Assembly: GCA_964394145.1 (NCBI GenBank)
Contig: CAYMVL010000043.1
Span: 53,285 to 117,284, forward strand
Direction: 5' to 3'
Source of the DNA: an uncultured Dehalococcoidales bacterium
GTDB taxonomy: Bacteria; Chloroflexota; Dehalococcoidia; GIF9; AB-539-J10
DNA: 64,000 nucleotides
In this document: in pieces, positions 3,349-20,009 of the stretch
Layout: each line of letters starts with the position of its first letter
Position numbering within the stretch: position 1 is the first letter of the stretch
Made by a program: the position numbers and the translations under genes
The notes under the pieces: model-generated
The model's database searches: none
What the model was told of the DNA's origin: nothing
What the model saw: the letters and a program-made list of their open reading frames with translations, nothing else

Positions 3349-3488
3349 GATGAACCTCCTGTCCAGATTCTAAGCCGCGAATTTAACATTATACCAGCTT
3401 CTTTTCTAATATTCCCAACTCTTGACAGGGTCCATCATTTTTGCTACAGGTTTTCTCAGGTAGAAAGTCACATAAGGAGGTCACTATT

Positions 3489-3830: not shown

Positions 3831-3986
3831 CTGAGCCAGCCTTGCGCCGTGGGAAGTTGATTTTATCCGCGTTACAGCTTTAGTCTGGGGCTGTAGTTTC
3901 TCCATCACCTCATATTTTCTATAACAGACACTACAGTAGCAGCCATTCTATAGCGCTGTGCGAATTGTTTGCTATAATTATGAGCT

Positions 3987-5362: not shown

Positions 5363-5371
5363 GAGGCTCCA

Positions 5372-5740
5372 ATGTATGAACTCTTTGTAGAAGATCATTT
5401 TGACTCGGCTCATTATCTGAGGCATTATCACGGCAAGTGCGAAAACTTGCATGGTCACCGCTATAAGGTAGTAGTGCGTCTGGAGGGAACCAGGCTTGAT
5501 GAAGCTGGTTTGGCCTACGATTTTGCCCAATTGAAGCGTGAACTGAGGCAAGTTACCGATCGATTTGACCATCATTGTCTCAATGAAGTGATACCTTTTG
5601 ACAAAATTGAGCCCTCATGTGAGAACATTGCCGCTACCATATTCCATGAGCTGCTGCCTCGTATCTCTGAAGCGCCGGTGACGCTAACTTGCGTGGAGGT
5701 GTGGGAATCGCCTACAACAGGAGTGGCCTATCGCCCCTGA
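5372..5740 (+). CDS. queD: 6-carboxytetrahydropterin synthase/PTPS (COG0720), hybrid CExxHGH type
   Basis: FDSAH, KCENLHGH, FDHHCLN, PSCENIA, VWES. Confidence 0.9.
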   Translation: MYELFVEDHFDSAHYLRHYHGKCENLHGHRYKVVVRLEGTRLDEAGLAYDFAQLKRELRQVTDRFDHHCLNEVIPFDKIEPSCENIAATIFHELLPRISEAPVTLTCVEVWESPTTGVAYRP

Positions 5741-5919
5741 GTTTGCTGGCTGGGTGGCAACAAGTTCGGGATTGTATCTGCTATAGGATAGGAATGCTGG
5801 CATTTGGGACAATATAAAGAACCTGTGATAACTTCCCCTCCCTCCTCTTTATCCACATTCAGGTGCAAAGTCCCTTTACATACTGGACAGACTAAGATGT
5901 TTACCAGTTCCTTTTTCAT
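5728..5919 (-). CDS. Trm112-family methyltransferase partner
   Basis: MKKELVNILVCPVCKG...LYCPKC..YPIADTIPNLLP. Confidence 0.88.
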   Translation of the reverse strand: MKKELVNILVCPVCKGTLHLNVDKEEGGEVITGSLYCPKCQHSYPIADTIPNLLPPSQQTQGR

Positions 5920-6005
5920 CCTCAGCTGCAATTATAACATATGAATAGTAATCAGCGAGAAAGTGCTATAATAGTCGAGCATGATACTCTGAAGGAAGGC
6001 AGAAG

Positions 6006-6353
6006 ATGACAACTCAGATCAGGAAGACTTATCGAGGTATAAATCCGGAGATGCTCTATGATGAAATGCGAGGTTTGGCACAAAAGCAAGGCCTTGCGGT
6101 CGATGAAGTTAAGCAACAGACTTATTCCCTCCCTAGCGGATCTACGCAGTCCCGAGTAACCCTGAAATTCAAGACGCAAGGTGAAAAGGCTGAAGACGAG
6201 AAGACTTGCGGGGACGCCCACATTATGAGCTCGCCCGGAGGCGAGACAAAAATGCTCCTTGACCTGGACGAAGACAGCCTGTCTCAGGAAAGGATTTCGG
6301 CCTTCCAGCAAGACTTGGATTTCATTCTTGGGTCATATGAGGTTAAGTGGTAA
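6006..6353 (+). CDS. Hypothetical protein
   Basis: 115-aa ORF with RBS GAAGGAAGG and upstream TGCTATAAT. Confidence 0.75.
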   Translation: MTTQIRKTYRGINPEMLYDEMRGLAQKQGLAVDEVKQQTYSLPSGSTQSRVTLKFKTQGEKAEDEKTCGDAHIMSSPGGETKMLLDLDEDSLSQERISAFQQDLDFILGSYEVKW

Positions 6354-6357
6354 ACAG

Positions 6358-6510
6358 GTGGGCAAAGAGACCAGGCAAGAACGCAGAGAGAAACAGCGCA
6401 TAAAGCAAGAAACTAAGATGCCTCAGCATGGTAAAAGCCTGGCAAGGATCTATCAGGACACCGTATCTAAGAGAGCCAGGATGAAGAAAGTCGTCAAGAA
6501 ACCAAAATGA
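6358..6510 (+). CDS. Small basic hypothetical protein
   Basis: GTG 4 nt after the upstream stop; MGKETRQERREKQR...QHGKSLARIY; start uncertain (ATG 6337 alternative). Confidence 0.5.
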   Translation: MGKETRQERREKQRIKQETKMPQHGKSLARIYQDTVSKRARMKKVVKKPK

Positions 6511-6635
6511 GTCTAATTCGCGGTGTAATAGGGAAATTTCTTCTCAGAGGTCCAATCATAGTCTTGGTTTGCCTGGCTATCGGTTTCGCTATAGCCCGCG
6601 GCGCCAGTTGGGTACTTCAGCGTTTAGTATGGTGA
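6507..6635 (+). CDS. 42-aa single-TM small protein
   Basis: ATGA overlap with previous stop; MSLIRGVIGKFLLRGPIIVLVCLAIGFAIARGASWVLQRLVW. Confidence 0.45.
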   Translation: MSLIRGVIGKFLLRGPIIVLVCLAIGFAIARGASWVLQRLVW

Positions 6636-6936
6636 TCATATCGGTTTCAATTTCGCGTTAGAGTTGAACGTCGGCCAGATTGGGGCCAATGAGTTTCAGG
6701 TTGCTCGTGGCCTCTATCCCTTTGATTAGTAAATCAAATTGGATTGTGCGCCGGGTTACATCAGAAGCTGGCTATTGGAATCTGAGCCGCGAGGCCTGGC
6801 CGTAGCGAGTCAGCTGTAAGATTAGTCTACGCAATCTAGGCGATAAGGGATTACATATGCCCTGTGTCATGTTAAAATTACGCCGGTTGCTTTGTAATGC
6901 CAAGGGAATGGAATTTGGAATTCAGTCTGGAGGGAA

Positions 6937-7530
6937 ATGAGGATGGATGAGTCTTTTACCCAGGACCAAGCAGTCGCCTCTGTTCGTTATGAACTGGCTA
7001 TCACGACGGATGAGGCCAGGCTCGGAACCAAGAAGATATTGTCCCGTGGTGGTAAGAGGCTGGAGGTGATGATACCTGCAGGGGTAGTAGCGGGAAACAT
7101 ACTAAAACTGAGCAACGCCCTGCAGTTAACAGACGACCATCCCGGAGACATTCTGATTCAAGTCAGAATCAAGGAAGAACCACAAGCCAGAGTCGTTGAA
7201 GTCAACGTTATCGAAATCAACGATGATAACTTCGAGACTGAGGTGTTGAAATCAGAACTGCCCGTCTTGGTGGACTTCTGGGCACCATGGTGTGGCCCGT
7301 GCCGTATGATTGGCCCCACTACCGAAAAGCTGGCTAAGGAATACGAAGGGCGGGTCAAATTCCGCAAGATAAACATAGACGAGAATCGCCTGGCAGCCGC
7401 CAAATATATGGTGATGAGCATTCCGCTGCTATTATTCTTCAGGGATGGCAAGGTAGTCGACCAAATCATCGGTGCGGTGCCCGAGTCCGAGCTCCGATCG
7501 AAGGTAGAATCGGTTCTTGCGGCGCAATAG
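6937..7530 (+). CDS. trxA: Thioredoxin with N-terminal DnaJ C-terminal-like domain
   Basis: VDFWAPWCGPCR in C-terminal half; N-terminus ITTDEARLG..LEVMIPAGV..G..LKL..GDILIQV resembles DnaJ CTD. Confidence 0.85.
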   Translation: MRMDESFTQDQAVASVRYELAITTDEARLGTKKILSRGGKRLEVMIPAGVVAGNILKLSNALQLTDDHPGDILIQVRIKEEPQARVVEVNVIEINDDNFETEVLKSELPVLVDFWAPWCGPCRMIGPTTEKLAKEYEGRVKFRKINIDENRLAAAKYMVMSIPLLLFFRDGKVVDQIIGAVPESELRSKVESVLAAQ

Positions 7531-7679
7531 GCCCTTCGGATGGAGCTTTGAGACCGGGATCATCGTGACCGGCTCGCGCTACATGCTAACAGGGATAGAT
7601 ATACCATGTGGCGAAATGTTAACCGATTTGTGCCAGGCTAGAGTAGCATGATGCCTATTGATTTTATGGGAGGTGGGCA

Positions 7680-8132
7680 ATGAAAGCACGTGAAGGGCAA
7701 ATCGGCCGGGTCTTTATGATACGGCTCGAAGATGGGGATCTGTTGCCCCAATGTATTCAGCGTTTTGCTGAGGAGAATGGGGTGTTGAGGGGACATGCTC
7801 TTTTAGTGGGTGGGGTAGGGGGAGGAAACCTCGTTGTTGGTCCGCGACGCTCAGAGGAAATGCCACCGGAGCCGATGGTGTTGCCCGTTGATGGGGCGCA
7901 CGAGGTGCTGGGAGTTGGGGTACTGGCTCCGGGTGAAGATGGCAAACCTGTCCTGCACATGCATGCCGCGCTGGGACGGGCAGGACAGACGATGGCTGGG
8001 TGCGTGCAGCGTGGAGTCACGATATGGCTTGTCGGTGAGGTTGTGCTATATGAAATCCTGGGTGCGGATTTGAGGCGTATCAAGCATGAGCAGAGTGACT
8101 TTGAGCTTCTGGATACTGGGGATGACAGGTGA
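7680..8132 (+). CDS. PPC/DUF296 domain protein
   Basis: GRVFMIRLEDGD, HEVLGVG, LHMHAALG. Confidence 0.85.
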   Translation: MKAREGQIGRVFMIRLEDGDLLPQCIQRFAEENGVLRGHALLVGGVGGGNLVVGPRRSEEMPPEPMVLPVDGAHEVLGVGVLAPGEDGKPVLHMHAALGRAGQTMAGCVQRGVTIWLVGEVVLYEILGADLRRIKHEQSDFELLDTGDDR

Positions 8133-8293
8133 ATTGAAGGTACAATGGCTCAATTATGAAATACTCCGGGGGCCTTGACTGGATGTGACGTGTTGGCTAC
8201 CCGGTCAGCTCGGGATCGCGCGCACTGTTGATTTGCGCCAACTAGGAGCGGTTGCTGGTTGATTTTCCAAAGTGCAACCGAGCATAATATGGC

Positions 8294-8944
8294 ATGGAAT
8301 ACAGGATCACACCTGCTCTCATAATCATTGACTTCCAAAACTGTTTCGTGTCCCCGGGGGGCGCATTCGATCAACTTGGTTATGGCATATCCATATATCA
8401 GAAAGTGTTACCGGTCGTTCAGGGCCTGTATCAGAAGGCAAGGTCGTTGAATATCCCGGTGTTTTTCTCGCAGGCACTCCGCGAGCAATCAGGGATTGAT
8501 ATGCTGGAGAGGGTGCACCAGATTCTGCCTGACAAGCGACGCGAGCGGATTGAAAAAATGCCTCTGTGTATTCGCGGTACGTGGGATAGTGATTTCGTTG
8601 AGGGCTTGAAACCCCAGGACGGCGACCATGTGGTTCACAAGAGACGTGATTCCGTCTTCCAGGATACCGAATTCGGACTTTGGCTACGGTCGATGAGAAT
8701 AGACACTATAATATTCTCAGGGATCGACAGCTCTATTTGCGTGGAGTCTTCCTTGCGTGATGCCTTTAACCGAGGTTGGGATGTGCTTCTGGTATCCGAT
8801 GCTACTGCTTCCCTGAATAACGCCTTCTACCGGACGACACTCGCGGAGATCAGCGAGAATTTCGGTTTGGTCATGACATCTGACGAAGTGTTTCGCAATC
8901 TGAGTGCCTTAGGTGACGGCCGGTTCTTGCTGAAGGTCGAGTAA
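8294..8944 (+). CDS. Isochorismatase-family cysteine hydrolase (RutB-like)
   Basis: IIDFQN, GTWD, KRR.S.F, SICVESSLRDA. Confidence 0.9.
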   Translation: MEYRITPALIIIDFQNCFVSPGGAFDQLGYGISIYQKVLPVVQGLYQKARSLNIPVFFSQALREQSGIDMLERVHQILPDKRRERIEKMPLCIRGTWDSDFVEGLKPQDGDHVVHKRRDSVFQDTEFGLWLRSMRIDTIIFSGIDSSICVESSLRDAFNRGWDVLLVSDATASLNNAFYRTTLAEISENFGLVMTSDEVFRNLSALGDGRFLLKVE

Positions 8945-9421
8945 GTTCTGGATTCTTCAAATGGTTCTCTGCTGAAACTGGCGGGCTATCCATAGCAGTT
9001 CGTAATTGATTCTTAGGCAAGGGAAAGTTATATCCTGTGGCAAACTGTGTCATTGAGTCTAAAGCCGCCCGCATATTCAGGCTTGCCTCAGGTTGATGTG
9101 AGCTGTGGAAGAAATGCCAAATGTGTGCAAAGAAAAGGCAAAAGAGTACAAGTAGAGATTCGACAGCTGATGTCATGCATGTCCGGAGGAGAACCTCTAA
9201 GGGTCTAGATATGCCTCTGAAGAAGGACCACCGTTGATTCATATGGGTTTTGGCCCTGCTTCGGTTTTAAGCTGCTGCGTCGAACCCTTGAGGAGCATGG
9301 ACTCACCCCGGGTGAACAATTCATGGCGCTTGATAACACACGTGCTGGCAAGCTGCTAGATCTATCCCGTGCTGGCATTAAATTAGCTTTTAAGGTAGAC
9401 TATGCTAGAGAGGCCGATGTC

Positions 9422-10591
9422 GTGAATATCGTTATTGCCCCTCAGGGTTTCAAAGGAAACATCAGTGCTCTCCAGGTCGCCCGGGCGATTGACAACGGAA
9501 TTAAACGCGTGATGCCCGAGGCAGTGACTGCCATAATGCCAATGGCGGATGGAGGGGAAGGGACATTAGAGGCTCTGGTTGCTGCAACTGGAGGCACCAT
9601 CAGAGAAACAGAGGTCACAGGCCCATTAGGGGGATCTGTCAATGCCCGGTGGGGCATTCTGCCGGATAAAGCTACAGCCGTTGTTGAGATGGCGGCCGCG
9701 TCAGGTATCATGCTCGTAGCATCCGATGATCTCAACCCGCTAATGGCGACGACATATGGTACAGGGCAGCTAATCTTGGCGGCACTTGACAGTGGCTGTC
9801 GTAAATTGATTATTGGTATCGGCGGCAGTGCCACTAATGATGGTGGTGCCGGCATGGCTCAAGCCCTGGGCGTCCGGCTGTTAGATTCGAAGGGGGCAAG
9901 TCTTCCATTTGGTGGGGCGGCGCTAGCCAGACTGGAGCGCATTGATATGTCCGACATAGACCAAAGGCTGGTAGATTGTAATGTAGTGGTAGCCTGTGAT
10001 GTCACTAACCCCCTTTGTGGTACTGATGGAGCATCGGCCGTTTACGGGCCTCAGAAGGGGGCTACGCAAGAAATGGTTAAGCAGCTTGATGCCGCGCTGT
10101 CTCACTACGCCGATGTTATCAAGAATGACCTGAATATAGAGGTGAAGGATGCTGCTGGTTCCGGGGCAGCCGGCGGTTTAGGAGCCGGGCTCATAGCTTT
10201 CCTCAAAGCTAAGATAATGCCTGGCATTGCTGTCGTTATTGAATCCACCCGGCTGGTAGAGCAACTTACTGATGCCGACCTGGTTTTTACCGGCGAAGGC
10301 AAGATCGATGCCCAGACGGGATGGGGCAAAGTACCAGTTGGGGTTGCCCGGAAAGCAAAGGAGTTCGGAGTGCCCGTTATCGCCCTTGCCGGTGAGGTAG
10401 CCAGTGACTACAGGGCCATCTACGATTACGGAATAGATGGCGTGCTCAGCATTGCTCCGGGCCCCATCAGCCTGAGTCAGTCAATGGCCAAAGCCGAGAA
10501 ATTGATCGCTGATGCAGCAGAATGCGCCCTTAATATATACCTCTGTGGCACTAAGGGTCGCATTCGCAAGCAGACGGGAGGACAATGCTGA
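9422..10591 (+). CDS. glxK: Glycerate kinase (GlxK/GarK family)
   Basis: IVIAPQGFKG, PMADGGEGT, GIGGSATNDGGAG, GAAGGLG, TGEGKID; GTG 9422 preferred over 9323. Confidence 0.93.
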   Translation: MNIVIAPQGFKGNISALQVARAIDNGIKRVMPEAVTAIMPMADGGEGTLEALVAATGGTIRETEVTGPLGGSVNARWGILPDKATAVVEMAAASGIMLVASDDLNPLMATTYGTGQLILAALDSGCRKLIIGIGGSATNDGGAGMAQALGVRLLDSKGASLPFGGAALARLERIDMSDIDQRLVDCNVVVACDVTNPLCGTDGASAVYGPQKGATQEMVKQLDAALSHYADVIKNDLNIEVKDAAGSGAAGGLGAGLIAFLKAKIMPGIAVVIESTRLVEQLTDADLVFTGEGKIDAQTGWGKVPVGVARKAKEFGVPVIALAGEVASDYRAIYDYGIDGVLSIAPGPISLSQSMAKAEKLIADAAECALNIYLCGTKGRIRKQTGGQC

Positions 10592-10646
10592 AATATAAGG
10601 AGTCTCTTGCGCAGAATGTAGCACGGAGGGTAGTTGGGGAAGGGTC

Positions 10647-11735
10647 ATGAAGGCAGTCATACTGGTCGGAGGAGAAGGAACTAGGCTACGCCCGCTGACC
10701 TTTAATACACCTAAGGCCATGGTGCCTATACTAAACCGGCCATTTCTGGAGCACCTGCTACTTTATCTGGCAAAACATGGTATAAGCGACGTAATTCTTG
10801 CTATGGGTTATCTTCCGGACCCCATCCAAAGGAGTCTGGGAAACGGTAGCCATTTAGGGATTAACATCACTTATCTGCTAGAGGACTCTCCCCTGGGTAC
10901 TGCGGGAGCGGTGAAGAATGCGGAGCCTTCGCTGAAGGAATCCTTTGTCGTATTCAATGGTGACATCCTGACTGAAATCGACTTGACAGACATGATCAAG
11001 CGGCACAGGGAAATAAACCCGGAGGTAAGCATAGCGCTCACACCAGTGGAGGACCCCACCATTTATGGGGTTGTGGAGACCGACGCAAAGGGGCTGGTGA
11101 AGAGTTTCGTGGAGAAACCAGCCCGGGAAGAAGTCACCACCAATATGATAAATGCCGGCATATACATCTTGGAGCCCGGGGTTCTCGAGTATATTCCAGC
11201 TGAGACTCGCTGCATGTTTGAGAACTATGTTTTCCCCACACTGCTCAAGACAGGAAAAAGCATCCTGAGCTATCCATCTGAAGCCTATTGGATTGACATT
11301 GGTACACCGGAGAAATACCTGAAGGCACACCATGATCTTCTCTCCAGATGTGGGGACGAAACTGTTCGTACCCAGGGCGAGAGCCGAATCCACTCTACAG
11401 CCCGAATAGAAGGGCCAGCGTTGATTGGAGAAGGCTGCCTTATCGCAGAAGATGCGCGGATAAAGGGTCCTGTTGTGCTCGGGCCGGGATGCCAGATTGG
11501 CAGAGGTGTAGTTGTGGAAGGTGCCGTGTTATGGGAAGGGGTGATGGTGGGGGAAGAGACGGTCATCAGGAACTGCATGATCGGCTCCCACGCCCATGTG
11601 GGCAGCCACTGCCAGATATTAGATGATTGCGTTGTGGGTGACGATGTTAAGATAGGCAAGGAAAGCAACCTTGCCTCAGGGACAAGACTTTCCCCAGAGA
11701 GTTACGGGGATCCAATTACGATGAGAAGCGTTTGA
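10647..11735 (+). CDS. NDP-sugar synthase, probable mannose-1-phosphate guanylyltransferase
   Basis: LVGGEGTRLRPLT..PK, PLGTAG, NGD, FVEKP, INAGIY, WIDIGTP, hexapeptide-repeat C-terminus. Confidence 0.88.
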   Translation: MKAVILVGGEGTRLRPLTFNTPKAMVPILNRPFLEHLLLYLAKHGISDVILAMGYLPDPIQRSLGNGSHLGINITYLLEDSPLGTAGAVKNAEPSLKESFVVFNGDILTEIDLTDMIKRHREINPEVSIALTPVEDPTIYGVVETDAKGLVKSFVEKPAREEVTTNMINAGIYILEPGVLEYIPAETRCMFENYVFPTLLKTGKSILSYPSEAYWIDIGTPEKYLKAHHDLLSRCGDETVRTQGESRIHSTARIEGPALIGEGCLIAEDARIKGPVVLGPGCQIGRGVVVEGAVLWEGVMVGEETVIRNCMIGSHAHVGSHCQILDDCVVGDDVKIGKESNLASGTRLSPESYGDPITMRSV

Positions 11736-11778
11736 AGCTTGCGCTTCAAACGCAATGTTGATATAAAAGGGGGATTAT

Positions 11779-13485
11779 ATGTGTCCTATATGCGGGTTGG
11801 TGAATCGAGATTGCCAGGATACTGACAGTAAGATGCACTCCATGATGAGCACATTGAAAGGCAAGGATGCTGCGGGAGCCTGGCTTGTCTACGACGGGAT
11901 AGCTAAGAGATGGAATGGGGGCATTGAACGAATCAAAGGACAAGCCTTGGGTCAAATTTCGCTGGCTACAAGGGACTTAGCTCCAGAACAACCGGGCTAT
12001 GATCGTAGCGGGAACCTGGTCGTGCTCATAATAGGTAACATTTACAACAATCAGGAGCTAGGATTGAGCCTGGCTTCCGCCCGCAAACCATCTTGCGCCA
12101 GCGACGCGGAACTAGTAGCTCTCCTCTTGGAGGAAAGTTACCAAGGGGACCTGAGCACAGCTCTTAAACAGGTAGCAAGGAAACTCGACGGAGCCTATTG
12201 CATAGCGGCGTCTGACGGCAAACAGATTGCCCTGTTACAGGACCCCACTGGACTTATTCCTGCCTACTATGACGAAAACGACAAGCTGGCGGCTTTTGCC
12301 TCAGAAAAGAAGGCATTATGGGAAATAGGGCTGCGAAATGTAAGACCCTTACGGGCAGGAATGCTCGCTTCCTTTGCTGCAGATGGGATTAGCTTGGCTA
12401 AAGTCCTTCGCTTACGCGATATGGTGGTCGAAGCCACCATAGATGACTTGACTAGTGCTGTTGACAGCTACTCTACCCTGCTTAGAACCGCTGTGGAAAG
12501 AAGGCTACGTAACCTAAAGAAGGTGGGAGTTCTTGTCTCAGGAGGGGTAGACAGCTGCCTTATAGCCAAACTTGTCTCAGACGCAGCGGCCGGGAGAGGC
12601 ATTGAGGTAATAGCTTATACTGCAGGGACAGACGGGGCTGATGATATTGAATACGCGGCGAATTTTGTTCGCGGGCTAGGGCTGCCACACAGGGTGAGAA
12701 GACTGACTCAGCACGAGATAGAGTCATATATACCGCGCGTTATTATCGCAGTTGAAGCGAGAGGCCTGGTGCAAGTGGAAGCTGGCATTGGAGTCTATGC
12801 TGCCCTGGAGGCAGCGAGAGAGGACGGCGTAAAGGTAGTGTTTTCCGGTCAGGGTCCCGACGAACTGTGGGGTGGCTATAGCTGGTATCCCCGGGTGATC
12901 GCCAAAGATGGTTACGAAGTGTTACAGGAAAGGATGTGGGATGACCTCGAAATGGCCGACATAGAGACCTTTGATAGAGAGCGAAAAATTGCATTGGCGC
13001 TCGGCATGGAGCAAGTATTCCCCTACGTCGATATCAGTGTGGTACGTCTGGCGATGAGCGTGTCACCCCGCCTGAAGATAAATTCCGTCGAAGACCACGT
13101 TGGTAAGCGCCCACATAGGGAAGCTGCAAAAAGGCTCGGTGTGCCGATAGAATACGCTGACAGAGCAAAGAATGCAGCTCAGCATGGCACCGGAGTCCAT
13201 GAATTCTTTGACAAGATAGCCCGCAAGAATGGTTTTACACCCGAGCTCGTGGCGCTTGTCGGGTACAGCAGTAATGGGGTCAATGAGAAGAGCCTGGGCA
13301 GTTCTGTCCGCTACGGCTACCTCTATGGTGAACAGGAACTCTGGCAGGTACCAGAGCACATCCAGTTTTTCCTTGATTCAATAGCATACCAGAAGAATCT
13401 GCTTAACGAAGTGGAGAGGTCGAGAATAGAAGTGTTCCTGAAGAAGACTGGCATGCCTGTGAAAGTACGCGCTTGGAATCAGTAG
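11779..13485 (+). CDS. Asparagine synthetase B-like ATP-dependent amide ligase
   Basis: N-terminal MC, SGGVDS PP-loop, SGQGPDELWGGY, K.A.QHGTG. Confidence 0.85.
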   Translation: MCPICGLVNRDCQDTDSKMHSMMSTLKGKDAAGAWLVYDGIAKRWNGGIERIKGQALGQISLATRDLAPEQPGYDRSGNLVVLIIGNIYNNQELGLSLASARKPSCASDAELVALLLEESYQGDLSTALKQVARKLDGAYCIAASDGKQIALLQDPTGLIPAYYDENDKLAAFASEKKALWEIGLRNVRPLRAGMLASFAADGISLAKVLRLRDMVVEATIDDLTSAVDSYSTLLRTAVERRLRNLKKVGVLVSGGVDSCLIAKLVSDAAAGRGIEVIAYTAGTDGADDIEYAANFVRGLGLPHRVRRLTQHEIESYIPRVIIAVEARGLVQVEAGIGVYAALEAAREDGVKVVFSGQGPDELWGGYSWYPRVIAKDGYEVLQERMWDDLEMADIETFDRERKIALALGMEQVFPYVDISVVRLAMSVSPRLKINSVEDHVGKRPHREAAKRLGVPIEYADRAKNAAQHGTGVHEFFDKIARKNGFTPELVALVGYSSNGVNEKSLGSSVRYGYLYGEQELWQVPEHIQFFLDSIAYQKNLLNEVERSRIEVFLKKTGMPVKVRAWNQ

Positions 13486-13741
13486 AAGCTGCTTTATCCT
13501 GGAAAACGTGGCTGTAGCTTCTTGTTCCGTGGGCTACTTTCCATTCATTTTTCACTGTTTCAGGGCCTCTGGTAATGAGAGTGTCGAATAATCTAGAACG
13601 GGCCGGCCTACCTTATTTCTCCACTGTGCCTTGGGCCGTCGCTATTATGACGTGCCTATCCCGGAGTGGTGATTGAAACAGGCCATATCGGCTATACTGT
13701 AGAAAACGAAGTGATTAGCTTCAGTTAATAGGGGGAAGAGA

Positions 13742-15799
13742 ATGCGTATCGAAAGCAGCAAGCAAGTTGAACATTTCGGAGCGGTGAGAGTGCACCCTGT
13801 GCGTCGTATTCTGGAGCTTGACTCTGGCGCCAGGATCCCGTCCCAGCTTAATGAAACCGTTGGGCCACAGAGAATCGAGCGCGACGTTATTGCGGGCATT
13901 CAACAAAGAATGGCTATTGTTCTGCCAATAAAGGATGAGGATTTGAGAGTCTTTGAAGGCGTACTTAGTGGCATTCCCCACGATTGCTTGATGATTGTGA
14001 TGTCTAACAGCGGGCGGGGAGAGATTGACAATCTGAAGAAGGAACAGGAAACGTTGGAGCGATTCTGCATTGCCACGCAGAGGAATGCGTTTATTGTGCA
14101 TCAGAAGGACCCTCATCTGGCAGAAGCCCTGGCCGACTGCGGCTACAACAAAGTCCTTGATGACGAAGGGCTGGTGAGAAATGGTAAGGCAGAAGGTATG
14201 GTCATTGGCATGCTGCTGGCAATGGCAATTGGCAAGGACTATGTTGGATTCATTGATACCGATAACTATATTCCCGGGGCGGTATGGGAATACGTACAGC
14301 ATTATGCCATCGGATTCAGTTTATCAATTTCGCCATATGTTATGACCCGGATTCTATGGAGATACAAACCCAAGATCTCAGGTGAACTATACTTCAAGAA
14401 GTGGGGTCGGGTGTCCGAAATAACGAACAGGTACATAAATCACTTTATATCCAGCAAGGGCAAATTTGAGATTGACGTAATCAAGACCGCCAATGCCGGG
14501 GAACATGCCATGAGTCTGGAACTGGCCAAGAAGCTAACCTATGCCACAGGCTATGGGGTTGAAACACAGGAACTGATGTCCATCCTGGAGCAGTTCTCGG
14601 CCCTGACACCTATAGTTGACAAGACTGTAGCAGAAAAAGGTGTCGACATTATTCAGACAGAGACCATAAATCCTCACGTCCACGAGGAAAGAGGTGAAGC
14701 ACACCTGATTCAGGACATGCTTGCGCCCAGTCTGTCGGTTATCTACCACAGTCCGTTATGCGAAGAAACAACGAAGCAATTGATAACCAAGCATCTGGTA
14801 GAGCTGGAATGCATCCCGGAAGGTGGTGAAGTGCCACAATTGAGAATGCTACCGCCGCCAGAGACCGCTGACAGTCAGAAGTTTGCCAGTTTCCTCGACA
14901 GGCACCTCAATGATTACGCTGTGCCTAAGGGGTCGCCGGTATGGGCCAGCTTACCGTCGGCAGCCCGTAAGGGGCAGGGTGTTACAAAGGTGGTTTTCAC
15001 CGACCTTGACGGCACCTTGCTTCATCCGGTCAGCTACTCCTATGCGGCGGCACTTGATTCTGTTCGGATATTGCAGGAAGCAAGAATCCCCATAGTATTC
15101 TGCTCCGCCAAGACAAGGGCGGAGCAGCAGGTCTACCGGGAAGAACTCGGTGTTAAAGCTCCGTTTATTATAGAGAATGGGGCAGCTATCGTGGTGCCGA
15201 AGGACTACTTCCGGTTTCCCTTCTCTTTTAGCAGAGTTATTGATAACTACCTTCTTATCGAACTTGGACTCCCCTACGAAGAAGTGAAGAACAGGTTAAG
15301 GAAATTGAAAGAAGGATGCGGGGCCAAAGTCACTCTATTCGGCGACCTCAGCACCGAGGAGGTCTCCAAAGCGACCGGATTGAACCTGCTGATGGCGGGA
15401 CTCGCCAAGCAGAGAGACTACAGTGAAACGTTAATAATAGAGGGGAGCAAGAAGCAGATCGAAGCAGCCCTGGCAAAGTTAGGGGGGGTAGGCCTAGACT
15501 ATACCTTTGGAGGTAAATTCTATGAAGTATATCTGGGTGGCGATAAAGGCAAAGCGGTCAAGATTCTAACGGAGCTTTTCAAACTCAACTTTGGCGAAAT
15601 ATACACCCTAGGTATCGGCGACAACCTGAATGACGCAGGGATGCTGGCTGCCGTGGACCTGCCGATACTGGTGCAGAGGGCGAACAACAGCTGGAGCAGA
15701 CTGAAAGTTAAAAATCTCAAACGTGTCACAGGGATTGGCCCTGAAGGCTGGGCTAAAGCAGCGTCGTGGCTATTGGAGAGCGGTAATCAAAGCAAGTAG
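13742..15799 (+). CDS. mgsD: Bifunctional mannosyl-3-phosphoglycerate synthase/phosphatase
   Basis: MpgS half: LSGIPHDC, VRNGKAEGM, GFIDTDNY, WRYKPK, GRVSE, NAGEHAM; HAD half: FTDLDGTL, SAKT.AE, ENGA, DKGKA, GDNLND. Confidence 0.93.
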   Translation: MRIESSKQVEHFGAVRVHPVRRILELDSGARIPSQLNETVGPQRIERDVIAGIQQRMAIVLPIKDEDLRVFEGVLSGIPHDCLMIVMSNSGRGEIDNLKKEQETLERFCIATQRNAFIVHQKDPHLAEALADCGYNKVLDDEGLVRNGKAEGMVIGMLLAMAIGKDYVGFIDTDNYIPGAVWEYVQHYAIGFSLSISPYVMTRILWRYKPKISGELYFKKWGRVSEITNRYINHFISSKGKFEIDVIKTANAGEHAMSLELAKKLTYATGYGVETQELMSILEQFSALTPIVDKTVAEKGVDIIQTETINPHVHEERGEAHLIQDMLAPSLSVIYHSPLCEETTKQLITKHLVELECIPEGGEVPQLRMLPPPETADSQKFASFLDRHLNDYAVPKGSPVWASLPSAARKGQGVTKVVFTDLDGTLLHPVSYSYAAALDSVRILQEARIPIVFCSAKTRAEQQVYREELGVKAPFIIENGAAIVVPKDYFRFPFSFSRVIDNYLLIELGLPYEEVKNRLRKLKEGCGAKVTLFGDLSTEEVSKATGLNLLMAGLAKQRDYSETLIIEGSKKQIEAALAKLGGVGLDYTFGGKFYEVYLGGDKGKAVKILTELFKLNFGEIYTLGIGDNLNDAGMLAAVDLPILVQRANNSWSRLKVKNLKRVTGIGPEGWAKAASWLLESGNQSK

Positions 15800-15873
15800 T
15801 ATAAGGGGTCAACGATGCTGAGCAACGGTGAGGGCAACAAGCTGCCAGCTTAAAATCAGAGTTACCCGGAGGT

Positions 15874-18411
15874 TCAGAACCCTATCTTGAGTGTTACTAT
15901 CTCAAAGGGTTTGACCCAGAATTTTATCTTTCTGCCCCTGAATTTGACCGGCTCTTGCTCCACCTCAAGAAGATTTGCCACGTTTACCGAGGTCGGTTCT
16001 TTGAAGAGCGTTATCTCACCCCATGTCTTCTGTCCCTTTGTTTCAAAGAACCTCAGAATAACGTCATCGGACGCTTCTGCCTTCTTGAAGGCGACCAGCA
16101 CCAGGTTCTCTGGCTTCAACTCAACAAACGAGAACTGGTTCGGGAAGAGCCTGTTCCCTTTTATTTTCAGTGGCAACTGGAAAGCCATCAGATTGTAATT
16201 AAACTCATAAGCTGGCTTGAAGACGTCATTCTCCTTCCAACCCTTCAGATGGGGAAGGATAGCGTATTCAAAGGAATAAGTTTTCAATTCCTGTGCATCA
16301 GGTGTTGGAATGGCGGGACCTGTAACGCCATCGGATGAGAGCATAAGGACGCTCCTCAACAAAGTGAGATAAATGCTGCCATCCCTGACCTCATGCGCAG
16401 GTAGCCCCTTATTAATCAGAGTCACCCCCTTATCCCGATCAGAATAGTCAATCCAGTTCAGGGCAGGATATGTTCCAGATGGATTCTCGACCCACTTTCC
16501 TCTCGGCTTATCATAATACTGGTTGCTACGCCGGGTTATCACTCCAAATTGAGTTTCAGAGTCGTATTTGGGGGAGTTGATGTTCGTCGCAAATTTTACC
16601 CGTATTCGTACTTGAGGATGGTGATTGTTGATGGTAGTAACGAAGTCAATTCTGGGTATATCGTTGTATACAGTAACCTTCTTGGAAACAGAGATGAAGC
16701 AGTGCCTCCAAAGCACAGGCCTCAGCTTATCCCGGAACCGGTAAGGCCATATAAGAGAATAATAGTCAGTTTCCACGTCGATCAGTACCCTCAGGGGAGT
16801 CTTGCTGATGTTGAAGCTCTTAAGTCTGAATTTCCCGAATTCCACGCCCTCATCGCCCTCTGTTTTGAAGGCTTCCTCTAAATTCTGCCGGTGGTAGTAA
16901 AGATCGCCGGTTTCCTCCTCCAGAACCAACTCGTTTCCTCGAACCAGATATTTGCCATCCTGCTTAACTTCAATCAGCCCATTTGCGGGATTTGTGGTGA
17001 CCGTGAAGAACTGGTTCTGAATAGCGTTGCCCCCAATTTTCGTCTTTGCGCGGGGAGAACCGCGCGGGTTCCTCCTTAATATCCTGTAAGTCCTGTAACC
17101 GCAGGGTGGAATGGTTGCCACAAACCCGAGTTTGACGGTCTGATACGAGTCATCCTGATACCGAGAGGACTCCAGGATTTCGGCCTCTAGCTCATCCCTG
17201 CCACTCCTCAACCCACCAATTCTCTTAATCTTCCCCCGGTCGAACCCCAGCTCGACTTCTACCCAATTAGTCACGGACCAGGAGAGCGGGTTAAAGACGA
17301 TGATATCGTCCTGAGTCTGTAGATTCGCAGCGGCGACATCGACGAAGTTGGCCAGGATATCGCTAAGATGAGATTGAAGATATTCGAAGTTATCTCTTGC
17401 CTCTTTGTAGCCTTCGTCCATTCCAGTGCCCGGCACCACGTCATGGAATGCTCCCCAGAGCACCTTTTTCCAGTTGTCTCTGAATTCATCAACCGGGTAC
17501 GGGACGCCGAGAAGCCAGGCAATAGTGCTCCATCTCTCACAGACAAGTATCAGGTGTTCGTATTTTCTCAGGTTCTGCTTTACCCAGATTCTGCTTGAAG
17601 AACAATGAGGGAATATACGTGAGAGTCGTCCTGAGTACATCTCACCGCGTCTGGTCTTGAGGTTGATGGCTTCCTTCTCCACGCTCTTGAAGAATTCAGA
17701 CGGACCTGAAATAAGCATTACAGAGTCATCATGAGACCTGTTCCATTTCTTAACGGCCCGAATGGTCTCGGGCTGAGGAGGGACTGAGCCACTACCTGAA
17801 GGCATCAGCACATGGTCCGTAGCAGCCAACGATTTGAGCAGGTCAAAGCTCTCCCCAAACTTGCTAAGGTCTAACCCGGCTCTATAACCAAGCGGCATAC
17901 AGTGGGTCAGTATCTTCGTTCCGTCTAGTCCCTCCCACAAGAATTCAGACGGACGGTCGTAGTAAGAGCCTCTTCGGAAGGCAAAGTACTTATAGCCTGC
18001 CTTGCTATATATTTGTGGCGATTGAGCGTTATAGCCGAAGCTGTCTGCCCCCCACATTACCGGCACGTCAACTCCAAACTTCTGCTCTACGTAGCGCTTC
18101 CCGAAGAGTATCCCTCTGACCAGCGTTTCACCGTTGGGAATCATCGTGTCAGCCATCAGATATTCGCCACCGGCGATTTCTATTTTGCCAGCCTTTATGA
18201 GCTTCTTGAGCGCGGCGAAAAGACTGGGGTTTCTCCTTTCCAGCTCCTCCAGTAGAACAGTCTGCTCTATCAAGAACTTATAACCGGACTTGCCCATCAA
18301 ATCTATTGCCGGCTTCAAGATAAGCTCGATGGTAATATACAGGTAGTCCTCCTTGGTGAATACCCAAACAGCATCGTAATGGCTGTGGGGGACAAGATAG
18401 ATTGTATGCAT
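15874..18411 (-). CDS. GH38 alpha-mannosidase
   Basis: HSHYDAVW Zn motif, WGADSFG nucleophile region, FHDVVPGT, LTLLRS. Confidence 0.9.
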   Translation of the reverse strand: MHTIYLVPHSHYDAVWVFTKEDYLYITIELILKPAIDLMGKSGYKFLIEQTVLLEELERRNPSLFAALKKLIKAGKIEIAGGEYLMADTMIPNGETLVRGILFGKRYVEQKFGVDVPVMWGADSFGYNAQSPQIYSKAGYKYFAFRRGSYYDRPSEFLWEGLDGTKILTHCMPLGYRAGLDLSKFGESFDLLKSLAATDHVLMPSGSGSVPPQPETIRAVKKWNRSHDDSVMLISGPSEFFKSVEKEAINLKTRRGEMYSGRLSRIFPHCSSSRIWVKQNLRKYEHLILVCERWSTIAWLLGVPYPVDEFRDNWKKVLWGAFHDVVPGTGMDEGYKEARDNFEYLQSHLSDILANFVDVAAANLQTQDDIIVFNPLSWSVTNWVEVELGFDRGKIKRIGGLRSGRDELEAEILESSRYQDDSYQTVKLGFVATIPPCGYRTYRILRRNPRGSPRAKTKIGGNAIQNQFFTVTTNPANGLIEVKQDGKYLVRGNELVLEEETGDLYYHRQNLEEAFKTEGDEGVEFGKFRLKSFNISKTPLRVLIDVETDYYSLIWPYRFRDKLRPVLWRHCFISVSKKVTVYNDIPRIDFVTTINNHHPQVRIRVKFATNINSPKYDSETQFGVITRRSNQYYDKPRGKWVENPSGTYPALNWIDYSDRDKGVTLINKGLPAHEVRDGSIYLTLLRSVLMLSSDGVTGPAIPTPDAQELKTYSFEYAILPHLKGWKENDVFKPAYEFNYNLMAFQLPLKIKGNRLFPNQFSFVELKPENLVLVAFKKAEASDDVILRFFETKGQKTWGEITLFKEPTSVNVANLLEVEQEPVKFRGRKIKFWVKPFEIVTLKIGF

Positions 18412-18677
18412 TTAGACCTCCAGCTTATGTTCCAAGTCTATGCAGAAGAATCTTTACTCGGATAACTCTGGTTTTACCAATTCTAAACTGTCACTGGTTC
18501 TTTATCAACCCCCGTGCAGCAGAGATGGAGCGGCCTGTCTCATTAGCCCCGGTTCAAATCTGATGTAATGGCGCTGTGACGCCTTTGAAGCTCCTGGATT
18601 TGAATTGCTAGCCTATCAAGGTCTAGGGGTGAAAGAATATTCACTGTGTCGCGATATGAGGCCTCTATTTCGCTTCA

Positions 18678-20009
18678 TCAATGGTCACCCCACCATCTCT
18701 TTATCCGGGCGGCAATCTCCTTCTCGTAGCCCTCGTCGCTCGGAAGATAGTAATGCTTGCCTTGAAGGGAAGAGGGCAGGTTTTGCTGCCGCACAAAATG
18801 GCCCGGGTAATCATGGGCATACTTATAGCCCTTTCCATATCCTTCACGGCGCATCAAGCCGGTTACCGGGTTACGCAAATGCAGCGGCACAGGGTCGTTC
18901 TGTCCGTGCTGTATATCCTCTTGAACCTGAGAATAGGCCTGGTACAGTGAGTTGCTCTTGGGAGCAGTCGCAAGATAGACGGCCGCTTGAGCTAGAGCCA
19001 GACTGCCTTCTGGCAAGCCCACAAAGTGCAGCGCCTGCTGCGCAGCCACTGCTATAGTCAAGGCCTGTGGGTCAGCCATGCCCACATCCTCAGAGGCAAA
19101 GCGCACCAGCCGCCGGGCGATATAGAGTGGGTCCTCACCAGCTTCCAGCATACGCCCAAGCCAGTACAAACCAGCGTCGGGGTCAGAACCCCGGAGGGAC
19201 TTATGCAGGGCTGAAATCAGGTCATAGTGCTCCTCGCCAGCCTTATCGTAGAGCAAGGCACGGTGCTGCAGTGCCTCCTCAATGGCAGCCAGGGTTATGA
19301 TTCGCCGCCCATCGCTTTGAGCCGAAGTGGCAAACGTCGCCATCTCCAGGGCATTCAGCGCTACGCGGGCATCTCCGCCGGACATAGTTACCAAATGTTG
19401 CATAGCCTCCTCGGCTATCTCAACTTTTAATTCCCCCAGCCCCCTCTCCACATCGTTAATAGCCCGCCGCATGATGAGCTTGATCTCCTGCTCGCCAAGC
19501 AAATTCAGCCTGAAGACACGGCATCGAGAAAGAAGCGGCGAGACAACTTCAAAGGAGGGATTCTCCGTAGTGGCCCCAATCAATGTAACTGTGCCATCTT
19601 CTACGAAGGGCAGTACTGCATCCTGCTGGGCCTTATTGAAACGGTGAATCTCGTCTATAAAAAGAATCGTCCGCTGCCCGGATACCTTTAACCGCTTCTT
19701 GGCCTCAGTGATAACATGCCGTAAATCAGCTACTCCGGCACTTACCGCACTGATTGGGCTGAAGTAGGACTTGCTAATAGCGGCAATAATCTGGGCCAGA
19801 GTTGTCTTGCCGCTGCCCGGCGGCCCCCATAGTATTATGGAGGGCAATTGGTCCGACTCAATACATTTCCGGAATACGCGCCCGTCAGCAACCAGATGCT
19901 CCTGCCCCACGAACTCGGCAAAGCTGCGAGGGCGCATCCTTGCCGCCAGCGGGGCGACGCGAGGTAGCACAGCTTCCGAGGATGAATCAAACAGAGGCAA
20001 ATTTTGCAT
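18678..20009 (-). CDS. rarA: Replication-associated recombination protein A
   Basis: [52 protein letters not shown]. Confidence 0.96.

What the first reader, a model, noticed from the sequence alone, without database searches (positions are those of the whole stretch)
9422..18411. Mannosylglycerate locus with an embedded amide ligase: candidate mannosylglyceramide (or novel amidated osmolyte) pathway
Seen: co-directional glycerate kinase, GDP-mannose pyrophosphorylase-like gene, AsnB-like ligase and fused MpgS-MpgP, facing a GH38 mannosidase. Known: MpgS/MpgP make mannosylglycerate (MG) from GDP-mannose and 3-phosphoglycerate; AsnB-like enzymes adenylate and amidate carboxylates; mannosylglyceramide is a known solute of Rhodothermus marinus, and I know of no assigned amidating enzyme. 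Inference: the ligase amidates the glycerate carboxyl of MG/MPG to give a neutral solute, and the locus covers precursor supply, synthesis and turnover.
Basis: partly seen in the sequence, partly recalled or inferred. Interest (0 to 1): 0.85.

Follow-up and report, generated by a model that had tools for sequence, protein, structure and literature searches.

The report
Amide ligase inside mannosylglycerate operon
A divergent asparagine-synthetase-like enzyme that has lost its glutamine-splitting site is built into the gene cluster for the stress solute mannosylglycerate in a group of uncultured Dehalococcoidia, which makes it a testable candidate for the unknown enzyme that turns this solute into its neutral amide.

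Summary
Window 9422-18411 holds glycerate kinase, a ManC-like nucleotidyltransferase, an AsnB-like gene (11779-13485), a fused MpgS-MpgP gene and a convergent GH38 gene.

The proposed synteny test came out strongly positive.
- In 151 genomes of the same order, 33 carry an ortholog of the AsnB-like protein. 31 of these also carry mpgS, and 16 have the two genes adjacent.
- In 80 metagenome loci, 64 have mpgS or mpgP beside it. Where both are present (47), it lies between them in 46.
- No AsnRS was found in any of the 151 genomes, so it is not a housekeeping asparagine supplier.

New finding: the glutaminase domain is degenerate. The N-terminal Cys is not conserved, and the Arg49, Asn74 and Glu76 equivalents are lost. 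The ATP-binding motifs are kept.

Best reading (about 0.5): an ammonia-dependent, ATP-driven amidation of the glycerate carboxylate of MG or MPG, giving mannosylglyceramide. The chemistry is inferred and was not shown here. Rhodothermus could not be searched. A derived subgroup sits next to glutamate dehydrogenase instead, and the intact-glutaminase sister lies in a nitrogen-assimilation cluster.

The parts
8294..8944 (+). Isochorismatase-family cysteine hydrolase (amidohydrolase-like); possible amide-turnover enzyme, weakly linked
   Evidence: Pfam Isochorismatase 136 bits. Best NCBIfam hits are RutB and biuret amidohydrolase, both below cut-off. The Asp, Lys and Cys positions align with those of RutB 8bkd (their role as the catalytic triad is recalled). 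Orthologs lie directly after the AsnB-like gene in L006, L044, L106 and L110, but only 6 of 151 order genomes have one.
9422..10591 (+). Glycerate kinase (longest ORF starts at 9323; likely GTG start at 9422)
   Evidence: Gly_kinase 502 bits and TIGR00045 492 bits. In-frame GTG at 9422 after AGAGAGG. No glyK match in the other fetched loci.
10647..11735 (+). ManC-like sugar-1-phosphate nucleotidyltransferase, probably mannose-1-phosphate guanylyltransferase (GDP-mannose supply)
   Evidence: NTP_transferase 187 bits plus hexapeptide-repeat (LbH-type) matches. man1P_GTase_Rv 314 bits, below the 440 cut-off. It is a regular member of MG clusters with and without the AsnB-like gene.
11779..13485 (+). 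AsnB-like carboxylate-adenylating amide ligase with a degenerate glutaminase domain (P0001, 568 aa): the gene in question
   Evidence: Pfam and NCBIfam hits are below the asparagine-synthase equivalog cut-offs. Alignment A1. PDB profile alignment. AF2 model pLDDT 86.6. Foldseek top hit is 1ct9. Synteny and co-occurrence.
13742..15799 (+). Fused mannosyl-3-phosphoglycerate synthase/phosphatase (MgsD type)
   Evidence: PRK14502 1004.9 bits against a 762 cut-off; Osmo_MPGsynth 470 bits; MPGP TIGR02461 261 bits. It is 77-80% (MpgS part) and 68-73% (MpgP part) identical to the fused genes of G038, G020 and G042.
15874..18411 (-). GH38 alpha-mannosidase family protein, candidate mannosylglycerate hydrolase
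   Evidence: Four GH38 domains. Only NCBIfam hit is mannosylglycerate hydrolase at 296 bits, below the 1138 cut-off. It recurs in MG clusters with and without the AsnB-like gene.

Best explanation
The AsnB-like protein is an accessory enzyme of the mannosylglycerate (MG) pathway. Its C-terminal PP-loop domain adenylates the glycerate carboxylate of MG, or of the phosphorylated intermediate MPG, using ATP. The acyl-adenylate is then attacked by free ammonia, because the glutaminase site is dead. The product is the neutral amide mannosylglyceramide.

Shown here:
- the gene content;
- the conserved embedding of the gene between mpgS and mpgP;
- its co-occurrence with mpgS;
- the loss of the glutaminase residues;
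- the retention of the ATP-binding motifs;
- the lack of AsnRS.

Inferred:
- the substrate (MG versus MPG);
- the nucleophile;
- the product;
- any role of the GH38 enzyme, the cysteine hydrolase and glycerate kinase in turnover.
For: 1. Co-occurrence. In 151 genomes sampled from the order, orthologs at E<1e-50 occur in 33 genomes and mpgS occurs in 43. 31 of the 33 ortholog genomes have mpgS, and only 2 of the 108 genomes without mpgS have the ortholog. Fisher's exact test gives p=4e-20; within one genus the table 14/2/1/14 gives p=7e-6. Related genomes are not independent, so these p-values overstate. One exception, G096, has an mpgP fragment at a contig end.
2. Adjacency. In 16 of the 31 genomes with both genes, the matches lie 42-1245 bp apart.
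3. Position in the cluster. Of the 80 best metagenome loci, 64 have mpgS or mpgP in the flank. 47 have both, and the gene lies between them in 46, with all genes co-directional in 39.
4. Persistence through rearrangement. The link survives at least five gene orders and a swap of split mpgS/mpgP for the fused gene in this window.
5. Ancestry. MG-linked members occur in all three subclades of the 25-row clade (SH-aLRT 99), so the link is probably ancestral.
6. Not housekeeping. AsnRS was found in 0 of 151 order genomes. GatB is present, AsnA was not found, and no canonical AsnB was found in this genome.
7. Likely still an adenylating enzyme. SGGVDS, GPDE and the Lys that aligns with E. coli K449 / human Lys-466 are invariant or nearly so. 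The AsnB fold is retained, with TM 0.71/0.81 to 1ct9.
8. Dead glutaminase. Residue 2 is Cys in only 32 of 68 metagenome loci. It is Ser, Gly, Thr, Ala or Tyr in 16 of the 22 clade proteins read from the window and genome loci (the canonical L029 left out). In this protein the Arg49, Asn74 and Glu76 equivalents are Ser, Ile and Asn. The roles of these residues come from passages of PMC6748925.
9. A cysteine amidohydrolase with aligned Asp-Lys-Cys positions is adjacent in the window and at four other loci.
10. In the passages I read, mannosylglyceramide is described as a solute and no biosynthetic enzyme is named. No paper in the searched library links an AsnB-like gene to MG.
Against: - There is no biochemical or expression evidence for any step.
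- In the passages read, mannosylglyceramide is reported only from Rhodothermus, and no Rhodothermus genome could be searched here.
- The clade was found only in this order: 0 of about 389 other Chloroflexota genomes at E<=1e-60.
- A derived monophyletic subgroup (8 rows, SH-aLRT 100) is not next to MG genes. It follows a glutamate dehydrogenase and/or an L-2-hydroxyglutarate-oxidase-like FAD enzyme, which points to nitrogen or 2-oxoglutarate metabolism.
- The nearest paralogue with an intact glutaminase (L029) lies in a GOGAT-Amt-GS-NrpR cluster and passes the asparagine-synthase equivalog cut-off. The ancestor was therefore probably a nitrogen-assimilation enzyme.
- The Gln at the E. coli Glu348 position is family-wide and is not special to this clade.
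- The amidohydrolase ortholog was found in only 6 of 151 genomes, and two of those six carry the AsnB-like ortholog.
- The DNA holders are aquatic and freshwater-sediment metagenomes, where the need for a salt-type neutral solute is not obvious.
Confidence: 0.5

Rival explanations
1. The enzyme joins the MG or MPG carboxylate to a nucleophile other than ammonia. That could be an amine or amino acid, or an intramolecular hydroxyl. The product would be an undescribed N-substituted amide or cyclic derivative of MG.
For: The synteny and co-occurrence evidence is the same as for the best explanation. AsnB-fold enzymes are known that do not use glutamine-derived ammonia (recalled chemistry): beta-lactam synthetase and carbapenam synthetase form intramolecular amides, and TsnB9 transfers hydroxylamine. 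All three are among the structural neighbours. The glutaminase residues are lost across the clade.
Against: No gene for making or supplying a special amine recurs in the cluster. The core is only mpgS, manC, the AsnB-like gene, mpgP and GH38. AsnB itself accepts free ammonia (abstract of PMC3854871, seen in the listing). A primary-amide hydrolase-like gene is adjacent in 5 loci. The protein is closer in sequence to AsnB (140.6 bits) than to beta-lactam synthetase (44.1 bits) or CarA (46.4 bits).
Confidence: 0.15
2. It is an ammonia-dependent asparagine synthetase, or it amidates another nitrogen metabolite. On this reading it sits with the MG genes only because both respond to the same stress or nitrogen signal, and MG is not its substrate.
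For: The sister paralogue L029 passes TIGR01536 (320.8 bits against 267.1) and lies in a glutamate synthase / ammonium transporter / glutamine synthetase / NrpR cluster. The derived subgroup sits behind glutamate dehydrogenase genes, and one MG-linked locus (L020) also has two GDH genes next to mpgP. Sources annotate the family as asparagine synthase.
Against: No AsnRS was found in 0 of 151 genomes of the order, and GatB is present, so free Asn has no use in translation. The gene is almost never found without mpgS: 2 of 108 mpgS-negative genomes, one of them an assembly gap. It lies between the two MG enzymes in 46 of 47 loci, which is tighter than co-regulation needs. It falls below both asparagine-synthase equivalog cut-offs.
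Confidence: 0.2
3. It is a catalytically inactive pseudoenzyme that serves as a scaffold or regulator of MpgS/MpgP.
For: One of its two active sites is clearly dead. Several synthetase-site residues conserved in E. coli and human AsnB differ. These are Gln at E. coli Glu348 and Val-Gln-x-Glu at E. coli 322-325. The human E364Q variant is inactive (PMC6748925 passages).
Against: The PP-loop SGGVDS, GPDE and the phosphate-binding Lys are invariant or nearly so. 79 columns are invariant over proteins only 38-77% identical. The same Gln and Val-Gln-x-Glu residues occur in the intact-glutaminase sister that passes the asparagine-synthase model, so they do not mark inactivity in this family.
Confidence: 0.07

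Closest known systems
Asparagine synthetase B (E. coli AsnB, PDB 1ct9; human ASNS 6gq3)
   Same: It has the same two-domain fold (Foldseek TM 0.71/0.81) and is the best PDB sequence match (140.6 bits with the clade profile). The PP-loop SGGxDS, the GxDE motif and the Lys aligned with K449/Lys-466 are kept.
   Different: - The glutamine site is lost. Cys1 is not conserved, and the Arg49, Asn74 and Glu76 equivalents are Ser, Ile and Asn here.
- Gln replaces E. coli Glu348 / human Glu-364.
- It is below the NCBIfam cut-offs (204.6 against 267.1; 169 against 499).
- It has a conserved C-terminal GSSxRYGYxY extension.
- Its genomic context is MG synthesis rather than amino-acid metabolism.
AsnO, the amidotransferase of the N-acetylglutaminylglutamine amide (NAGGN) osmolyte pathway (TIGR03104)
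   Same: It is a precedent for an AsnB-family enzyme that amidates a carboxylate of a compatible solute and is encoded beside the solute's synthase. That role is recalled from Sagot et al. 2010, which I did not read here. The listing only shows papers that pair asnO with NAGGN.
   Different: The match to the family model is weak (116.6 bits against a cut-off of 570.1). AsnO is described as a glutamine amidotransferase, whereas this clade has lost the glutaminase residues. The substrate is a dipeptide rather than a glycosyl-glycerate.
Beta-lactam synthetase and carbapenam synthetase (1jgt, 1q15)
   Same: They have the AsnB fold with a non-functional N-terminal domain and form an amide by carboxylate adenylation without glutamine. 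That chemistry is recalled. They are structural neighbours at ranks 7-22.
   Different: The sequence relation is much weaker (44-46 bits). They perform intramolecular ring closure in antibiotic pathways. Nothing in this cluster suggests a cyclisation substrate.
Mannosylglyceramide of Rhodothermus marinus
   Same: It is the predicted product: the neutral amide of MG, accumulated in place of MG as salinity rises (review PMC1224877, passages).
   Different: In the passages read it is described as a solute and no biosynthetic enzyme is named. The organism is a thermophile of another phylum. Its genome could not be searched here, so no homology link is established.
MgsD, the bifunctional MG synthase of Dehalococcoides (Empadinhas et al. 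2004)
   Same: The window's 685-aa gene is a full-length member of this family (PRK14502 1004.9 bits). The enzyme is described in passages of PMC13390484 and PMC4918011.
   Different: In those passages MgsD is discussed alone and no amide ligase is mentioned. Most relatives with the AsnB-like gene have split mpgS and mpgP genes rather than the fusion. The original paper is not held in the library.

Membership tests
Glutamine-hydrolysing asparagine synthetase (AsnB, TIGR01536 / PRK09431) | Score above the curated equivalog cut-off | tested here: not met
   TIGR01536 204.6 bits against 267.1; PRK09431 169 bits against 499. The paralogue L029 passes at 320.8 bits.
Glutamine-hydrolysing asparagine synthetase (AsnB, TIGR01536 / PRK09431) | N-terminal nucleophile Cys directly after the initiator Met | tested here: inconclusive
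   The window protein starts MCPICG. Residue 2 is Ser, Gly, Thr, Ala or Tyr in 16 of the 22 clade proteins read from the window and genome loci (canonical L029 left out). It is Cys in 32 of 68 metagenome loci.
Glutamine-hydrolysing asparagine synthetase (AsnB, TIGR01536 / PRK09431) | Glutamine-binding and oxyanion residues Arg49, Asn74, Glu76, Asp98 (human Arg-48, Asn-74, Glu-76, Asp-96; PMC6748925 passages) | tested here: not met
   Aligned to the intact paralogue L029 (GHTRLAIV, NGEIYN, DSE), the window protein has Ser, Ile, Asn and Asp. All four positions vary across the clade.
Glutamine-hydrolysing asparagine synthetase (AsnB, TIGR01536 / PRK09431) | Synthetase-site Glu (E. coli Glu348 / human Glu-364; human E364Q is inactive) | tested here: not met
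   Gln358 is invariant in A1, within SGQGPDE. The same Gln is present in the intact-glutaminase sisters, so it marks a wider subfamily.
AsnB superfamily (PP-loop carboxylate-adenylating amide-forming enzymes) | PP-loop SGGxDS, phosphate-binding Lys and the two-domain AsnB fold | tested here: met
   SGGVDS at 254-259 and K464 aligned to E. coli K449. AF2 model pLDDT 86.6. Foldseek top hits are 1ct9, 9b6c and 6gq3.
NAGGN amidotransferase AsnO (TIGR03104) | Score above the equivalog cut-off | tested here: not met
   116.6 bits against 570.1.
Bifunctional MG synthase MgsD (PRK14502) | Full-length match above cut-off, with GT55 MpgS and HAD-IIB MpgP domains | tested here: met
   1004.9 bits against 762, covering residues 1-675 of 685. 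TIGR02460 464.6 bits and TIGR02461 261.3 bits are both above their cut-offs.
Mannosylglycerate hydrolase MngB (NF007331) | Score above the equivalog cut-off | tested here: not met
   296.4 bits against 1138. All GH38 domains are present. The function is suggested only by context.
Isochorismatase-like cysteine amidohydrolases (RutB, BiuH, CSHase) | Asp-Lys-Cys catalytic triad (the identity of the triad residues is recalled) | tested here: met
   Asp in IIIDFQN, Lys in VVHKRRDS and Cys in SSICVES align with the corresponding RutB 8bkd residues. The protein is below the RutB and BiuH equivalog cut-offs.
Mannosylglyceramide-forming enzyme (no family defined) | Converts MG or MPG plus ATP plus a nitrogen donor to the amide | not testable with these tools
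   This needs an enzyme assay or solute analysis.

The most novel reading that the evidence does not exclude
This clade is the missing mannosylglyceramide synthase. It would be an ammonia-dependent, glutaminase-dead AsnB derivative that acts between MpgS and MpgP, possibly on the phosphorylated intermediate. On this reading many uncultured sediment Dehalococcoidia make the neutral amide, a solute so far reported only from Rhodothermus. They could then switch between anionic MG and the neutral amide, with a cysteine hydrolase and the GH38 enzyme taking it apart again.
Probability: 0.45. Interest if true: 0.8.

Novelty: new variant of a known kind. Interest (0 to 1): 0.7.

Why it matters
In the passages I read, the amide form of mannosylglycerate is described as a Rhodothermus solute and no enzyme is named for its synthesis. 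In the library I could search, no paper links an AsnB-like gene to MG.

This locus gives a concrete gene with unusually clean comparative evidence that can be tested by simple co-expression. If confirmed, it would have three consequences:
- it would add a step to a textbook compatible-solute pathway;
- it would show a new substrate class, a glycosyl-glycerate, for the AsnB superfamily, and a case of a glutaminase domain being given up for free ammonia;
- it would offer a route to make the neutral solute biotechnologically alongside MG.

It would also correct the blanket annotation "asparagine synthase (glutamine-hydrolysing)" now given to hundreds of metagenomic copies.

Tried and rejected
- Housekeeping AsnB: rejected. 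No AsnRS was found in 0 of 151 order genomes. The own genome has GatB and no AsnA. Its only other Asn_synthase ORF (P0283, 308 aa) lacks the N-terminal domain.
- Glycerate kinase as a conserved cluster member: rejected. There was no glyK match in the 40 genome loci, in L006 or in the 80 metagenome loci.
- Isochorismatase hydrolase as a general partner: weak. An ortholog is present in only 6 of 151 genomes, although it is adjacent at 5 loci.
- Gln358 as evidence against Asp as substrate: dropped, because the intact-glutaminase sister also has it.
- Mapping of E. coli D384/R387: left open. The HMMER alignments to 1ct9 and to human ASNS disagree by three residues.
- Promoter and terminator scan of 8000-18800: 12 and 12 sites, against 10.4 and 9.1 expected, so it is not informative.
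- Genome-contig scan with the single protein: found only one locus, L006.
- Protein Atlas: the nearest clusters are generic asparagine-synthase families from Chloroflexota and archaea, with no further lead.
- The listing of cluster members on 10 representatives: only generic names.
- Sequencing runs: no RNA holder is listed, and read laying was not used.
- Supplementary files of papers were not consulted.
- Empadinhas et al. 2004 (PMC421594) is not held in the library, so I could not check what it says about genes flanking mgsD.
- The careful tree did not finish within the time limit. The quick IQ-TREE tree with SH-aLRT support was used instead.

Full report
**What is in the window**

The region 8294-18411 carries six genes.
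- An isochorismatase-family hydrolase at 8294-8944 (+).
- Glycerate kinase: longest ORF 9323-10591 (+). An in-frame GTG at 9422 behind AGAGAGG gives the usual N-terminus.
- A ManC-like nucleotidyltransferase at 10647-11735 (+).
- An AsnB-like protein of 568 aa at 11779-13485 (+), stored as P0001.
- A fused MpgS-MpgP gene at 13742-15799 (+), matching PRK14502 at 1004.9 bits against a cut-off of 762.
- A convergent GH38 gene at 15874-18411 (-).

The window is contig C43 of a 1.6-Mb, 45-contig genome that is 94% complete. The only named relative found is an uncultured Dehalococcoidales MAG.

**Is the AsnB-like gene tied to the MG genes?**

I searched the same evenly drawn sample of 151 genomes of the order twice.
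- Orthologs of P0001 (E<1e-50, 38-77% identity) occur in 33 genomes.
- mpgS (PF09488) occurs in 43 genomes.
- 31 genomes have both, 2 have the ortholog alone (G096, G112), 12 have mpgS alone, and 106 have neither.
- Fisher's exact test gives p=4e-20 for the order. Within the largest genus the table is 14/2/1/14, p=7e-6. Related genomes are not independent, so these p-values overstate the case. However, presence and absence co-vary inside several genera (g2, g5, g8, g11, g23).
- G096 has the first 50 positions of an mpgP match at the very end of a contig, so it is probably an assembly gap. G112 is 83% complete.
- In 16 of the 31 genomes with both genes, the two matches lie 42-1245 bp apart on one contig.

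**Gene order**

I fetched 40 regions and mapped the window's proteins onto them by tblastn. Five arrangements recur.
1. mpgS-manC-asnBL-mpgP, all co-directional (L010-L014).
2. GH38-mpgS-asnBL-mpgP (L015).
3. mpgS> <asnBL manC> mpgP> GH38> (L016-L018, L020, L022).
4. mpgP .. mpgS> <asnBL .. manC (L019).
5. The window's own order: glyK-manC-asnBL-mgsD, with GH38 convergent.

The window's manC, asnBL and GH38 are closest to those of G060 (79, 77 and 68% identity), which has split mpgS and mpgP genes. Its fused gene is closest to the fused genes of G038, G020 and G042 (77-80% in the MpgS part). So the association survived an exchange of the synthase type.

MG clusters without the AsnB-like gene also exist. 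One is in a genome of the same genus (L030), and others are L034, L036, L039, L041 and L043. The gene therefore behaves as an accessory to the pathway.

A scan of metagenome contigs with the clade alignment returned 193 relatives, of which the best 80 were kept. These 80 are biased toward the window's own subclade and may overlap the genomes above.
- 64 of the 80 have mpgS or mpgP in the flank.
- 47 have both, and in 46 of these the gene lies between them. All genes are co-directional in 39.
- 4 follow a DAO-family gene.
- 2 are followed by the isochorismatase-family gene.
- 2 short contigs show only manC.
- 8 show none of these.

**Not a housekeeping asparagine synthetase**

- The AsnRS model TIGR00457 finds nothing in any of the 151 genomes.
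- In the own genome the best matches to that model are far below its cut-off. GatB is present and AsnA was not found.
- This fits tRNA-dependent Asn formation, which needs no free asparagine (established knowledge of the GatCAB route).
- The only other Asn_synthase ORF in the genome (P0283, 308 aa) has the synthetase domain alone plus a C-terminal CxxC..CxxC motif.
- P0001 falls below both asparagine-synthase equivalog cut-offs.

**Anatomy of the protein**

The AF2 model is confident (pLDDT 86.6, pTM 0.88). Its best structural matches are E. coli AsnB, human ASNS, beta-lactam synthetase, TsnB9 and CarA.

The synthetase half is conserved in alignment A1. A1 has 20 sequences that are 38-77% identical to the window protein and contains 79 invariant columns. 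The PP-loop SGGVDS, GPDE and Lys464 are kept. Lys464 aligns with E. coli K449 and human Lys-466, the phosphate-binding lysine (PMC6748925 passages).

The glutaminase half is degenerate.
- Residue 2 is Cys only in the window's subclade. Elsewhere it is Ser, Gly, Thr, Ala or Tyr. It is Cys in 32 of 68 metagenome loci.
- Aligned against an intact paralogue (L029: Cys1, GHTRLAIV, NGEIYN, DSE), the window protein has Ser, Ile and Asn at the Arg49, Asn74 and Glu76 positions.
- According to the PMC6748925 passages, these residues mediate glutamine recognition and thioester stabilisation.

I conclude that glutamine is not the nitrogen donor. This is an inference.

I first took Gln358, at the position of E. 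coli Glu348 / human Glu-364 (whose E364Q variant is inactive), as a sign of a non-aspartate substrate. The intact paralogue and a broad archaeal and bacterial subfamily carry the same Gln, so I withdrew that argument.

The positions that are specific to the clade are Asp394, Asp399, Asn402 and Trp364. Their structural role could not be mapped here.

**Phylogeny and the awkward subgroup**

A quick IQ-TREE tree of 35 rows gives a 25-row clade (SH-aLRT 99) with three subclades, and each subclade contains MG-linked members.

Nested inside one subclade is a monophyletic group of 8 rows (SH-aLRT 100) that is not next to MG genes. These genes follow either or both of two neighbours.
- A glutamate dehydrogenase.
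- A DAO-family FAD enzyme whose best model is L-2-hydroxyglutarate oxidase, at 248.5 bits against a 299 cut-off.

Most genomes of this subgroup still have mpgS elsewhere. One MG-linked locus (L020) has two GDH genes beside mpgP.

This can be read in two ways. GDH might supply ammonia to an enzyme that can no longer use glutamine. Or the clade might belong to nitrogen metabolism.

The sister paralogue L029 passes the asparagine-synthase model. It lies in a cluster that holds glutamate synthase subunits, a response regulator, an ammonium transporter, glutamine synthetase and NrpR. So the ancestor was probably a nitrogen-assimilation enzyme.

**Range**

In a phylum-wide sample of 401 genomes the clade profile matched at E<=1e-60 only G000, G004 and G014, all of one family. 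None of the roughly 389 genomes outside the order matched.

A profile search of 1.84 billion representatives found only about a dozen 50%-identity clusters that carry the clade's C-terminal RYGY and DxETxxRE(N) motifs. The names retrieved for them are generic.

**Turnover genes**

- GH38 recurs in MG clusters with and without the AsnB-like gene, so it is a plausible MG hydrolase. It scores far below the MngB cut-off.
- In the isochorismatase-family protein, the Asp, Lys and Cys positions align with those of RutB (their role as the catalytic triad is recalled). An ortholog sits directly downstream of the AsnB-like gene in L006, L044, L106 and L110. Orthologs occur in only 6 of 151 genomes, so this is a supportive detail and not a rule.
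- Glycerate kinase is linked only in this genome.

**Literature**

- "Mannosylglyceramide" occurs in 5 papers of the library. In the passages I read it is a Rhodothermus solute favoured at high salt, and no enzyme is named.
- Searches pairing mannosylglycerate or mannosyl-3-phosphoglycerate with asparagine synthetase or synthase returned only unrelated papers.
- The "glyceramide" search added nothing relevant (listing only).
- Papers on Dehalococcoides and Dehalogenimonas mention mgsD alone (passages).
- The original mgsD paper is not held.
- Subscription journals are mostly outside this library, so "not in print" means not found in these searches.

**Verdict**

The functional link between this AsnB clade and MG synthesis is well supported by comparative genomics.

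The most economical chemistry for an AsnB-fold adenylating enzyme embedded between MpgS and MpgP is amidation of the glycerate carboxylate with free ammonia, giving mannosylglyceramide. I put this at about 0.5.

The rivals and their odds are:
- a nitrogen-metabolism enzyme co-located with the MG genes, about 0.2;
- conjugation to another nucleophile, about 0.15;
- a pseudoenzyme, about 0.07.

It is a new variant of a known enzyme kind, in a pathway step that has no assigned enzyme in the literature I could search.

Noticed in passing
L026:5187-7916 and L023-L027, L042, L046, L047, L121, L123, L128, L129: A derived subgroup of the AsnB-like clade (N-terminus MTWIGG) always follows a glutamate dehydrogenase and/or an L-2-hydroxyglutarate-oxidase-like FAD enzyme, with a gap of about 15 bp. 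A tyrosine recombinase gene often lies downstream. This could be a second context for the same enzyme or a change of function.
   Followed up: partly
G000:C34, L002:1489-2415 (P0283): The genome's second Asn_synthase-domain gene encodes only the synthetase domain (308 aa, TGDGSDE motif). It ends in a CxxC..CxxC zinc-ribbon-like tail and follows an XTP/dITP diphosphatase gene. Its function is unknown.
   Followed up: partly
L029 (G018:C8), about 3000-14000: A compact nitrogen cluster was seen. It holds three archaeal-type glutamate synthase subunit genes, an intact-glutaminase AsnB that carries Gln at the E. coli Glu348 position, a response regulator, an ammonium transporter, a 112-aa ORF, glutamine synthetase and an NrpR-type regulator. 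NrpR is usually discussed for archaea.
   Followed up: partly
window 6937-7530 (+): A 197-aa ORF joins a DnaJ C-terminal-like segment to a thioredoxin domain. Thioredoxin-like genes also sit next to manC in L019 and L043.
   Followed up: no
window 7680-8132 (+); L036:13291-13725: A PCC-domain (PF03479) protein lies upstream of the cluster. A 74%-identical copy lies about 3 kb from the MG cluster of G076.
   Followed up: no
window 13742-15799 versus L010 (G060): The window's cluster is a mosaic. manC, the AsnB-like gene and GH38 are closest to a relative with split mpgS/mpgP genes. The fused mgsD is closest to fused genes of other genera. This suggests replacement of the split genes by a fused one at the same site.
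   Followed up: partly
window 15874-18411 (-): A GH38 enzyme is the recurrent hydrolase of these MG clusters. From recall, the characterised hydrolases of free MG belong to GH63, and E. coli MngB (GH38) acts on the 6-phosphorylated form. A GH38 enzyme acting on free MG would be a small novelty of its own.
   Followed up: no
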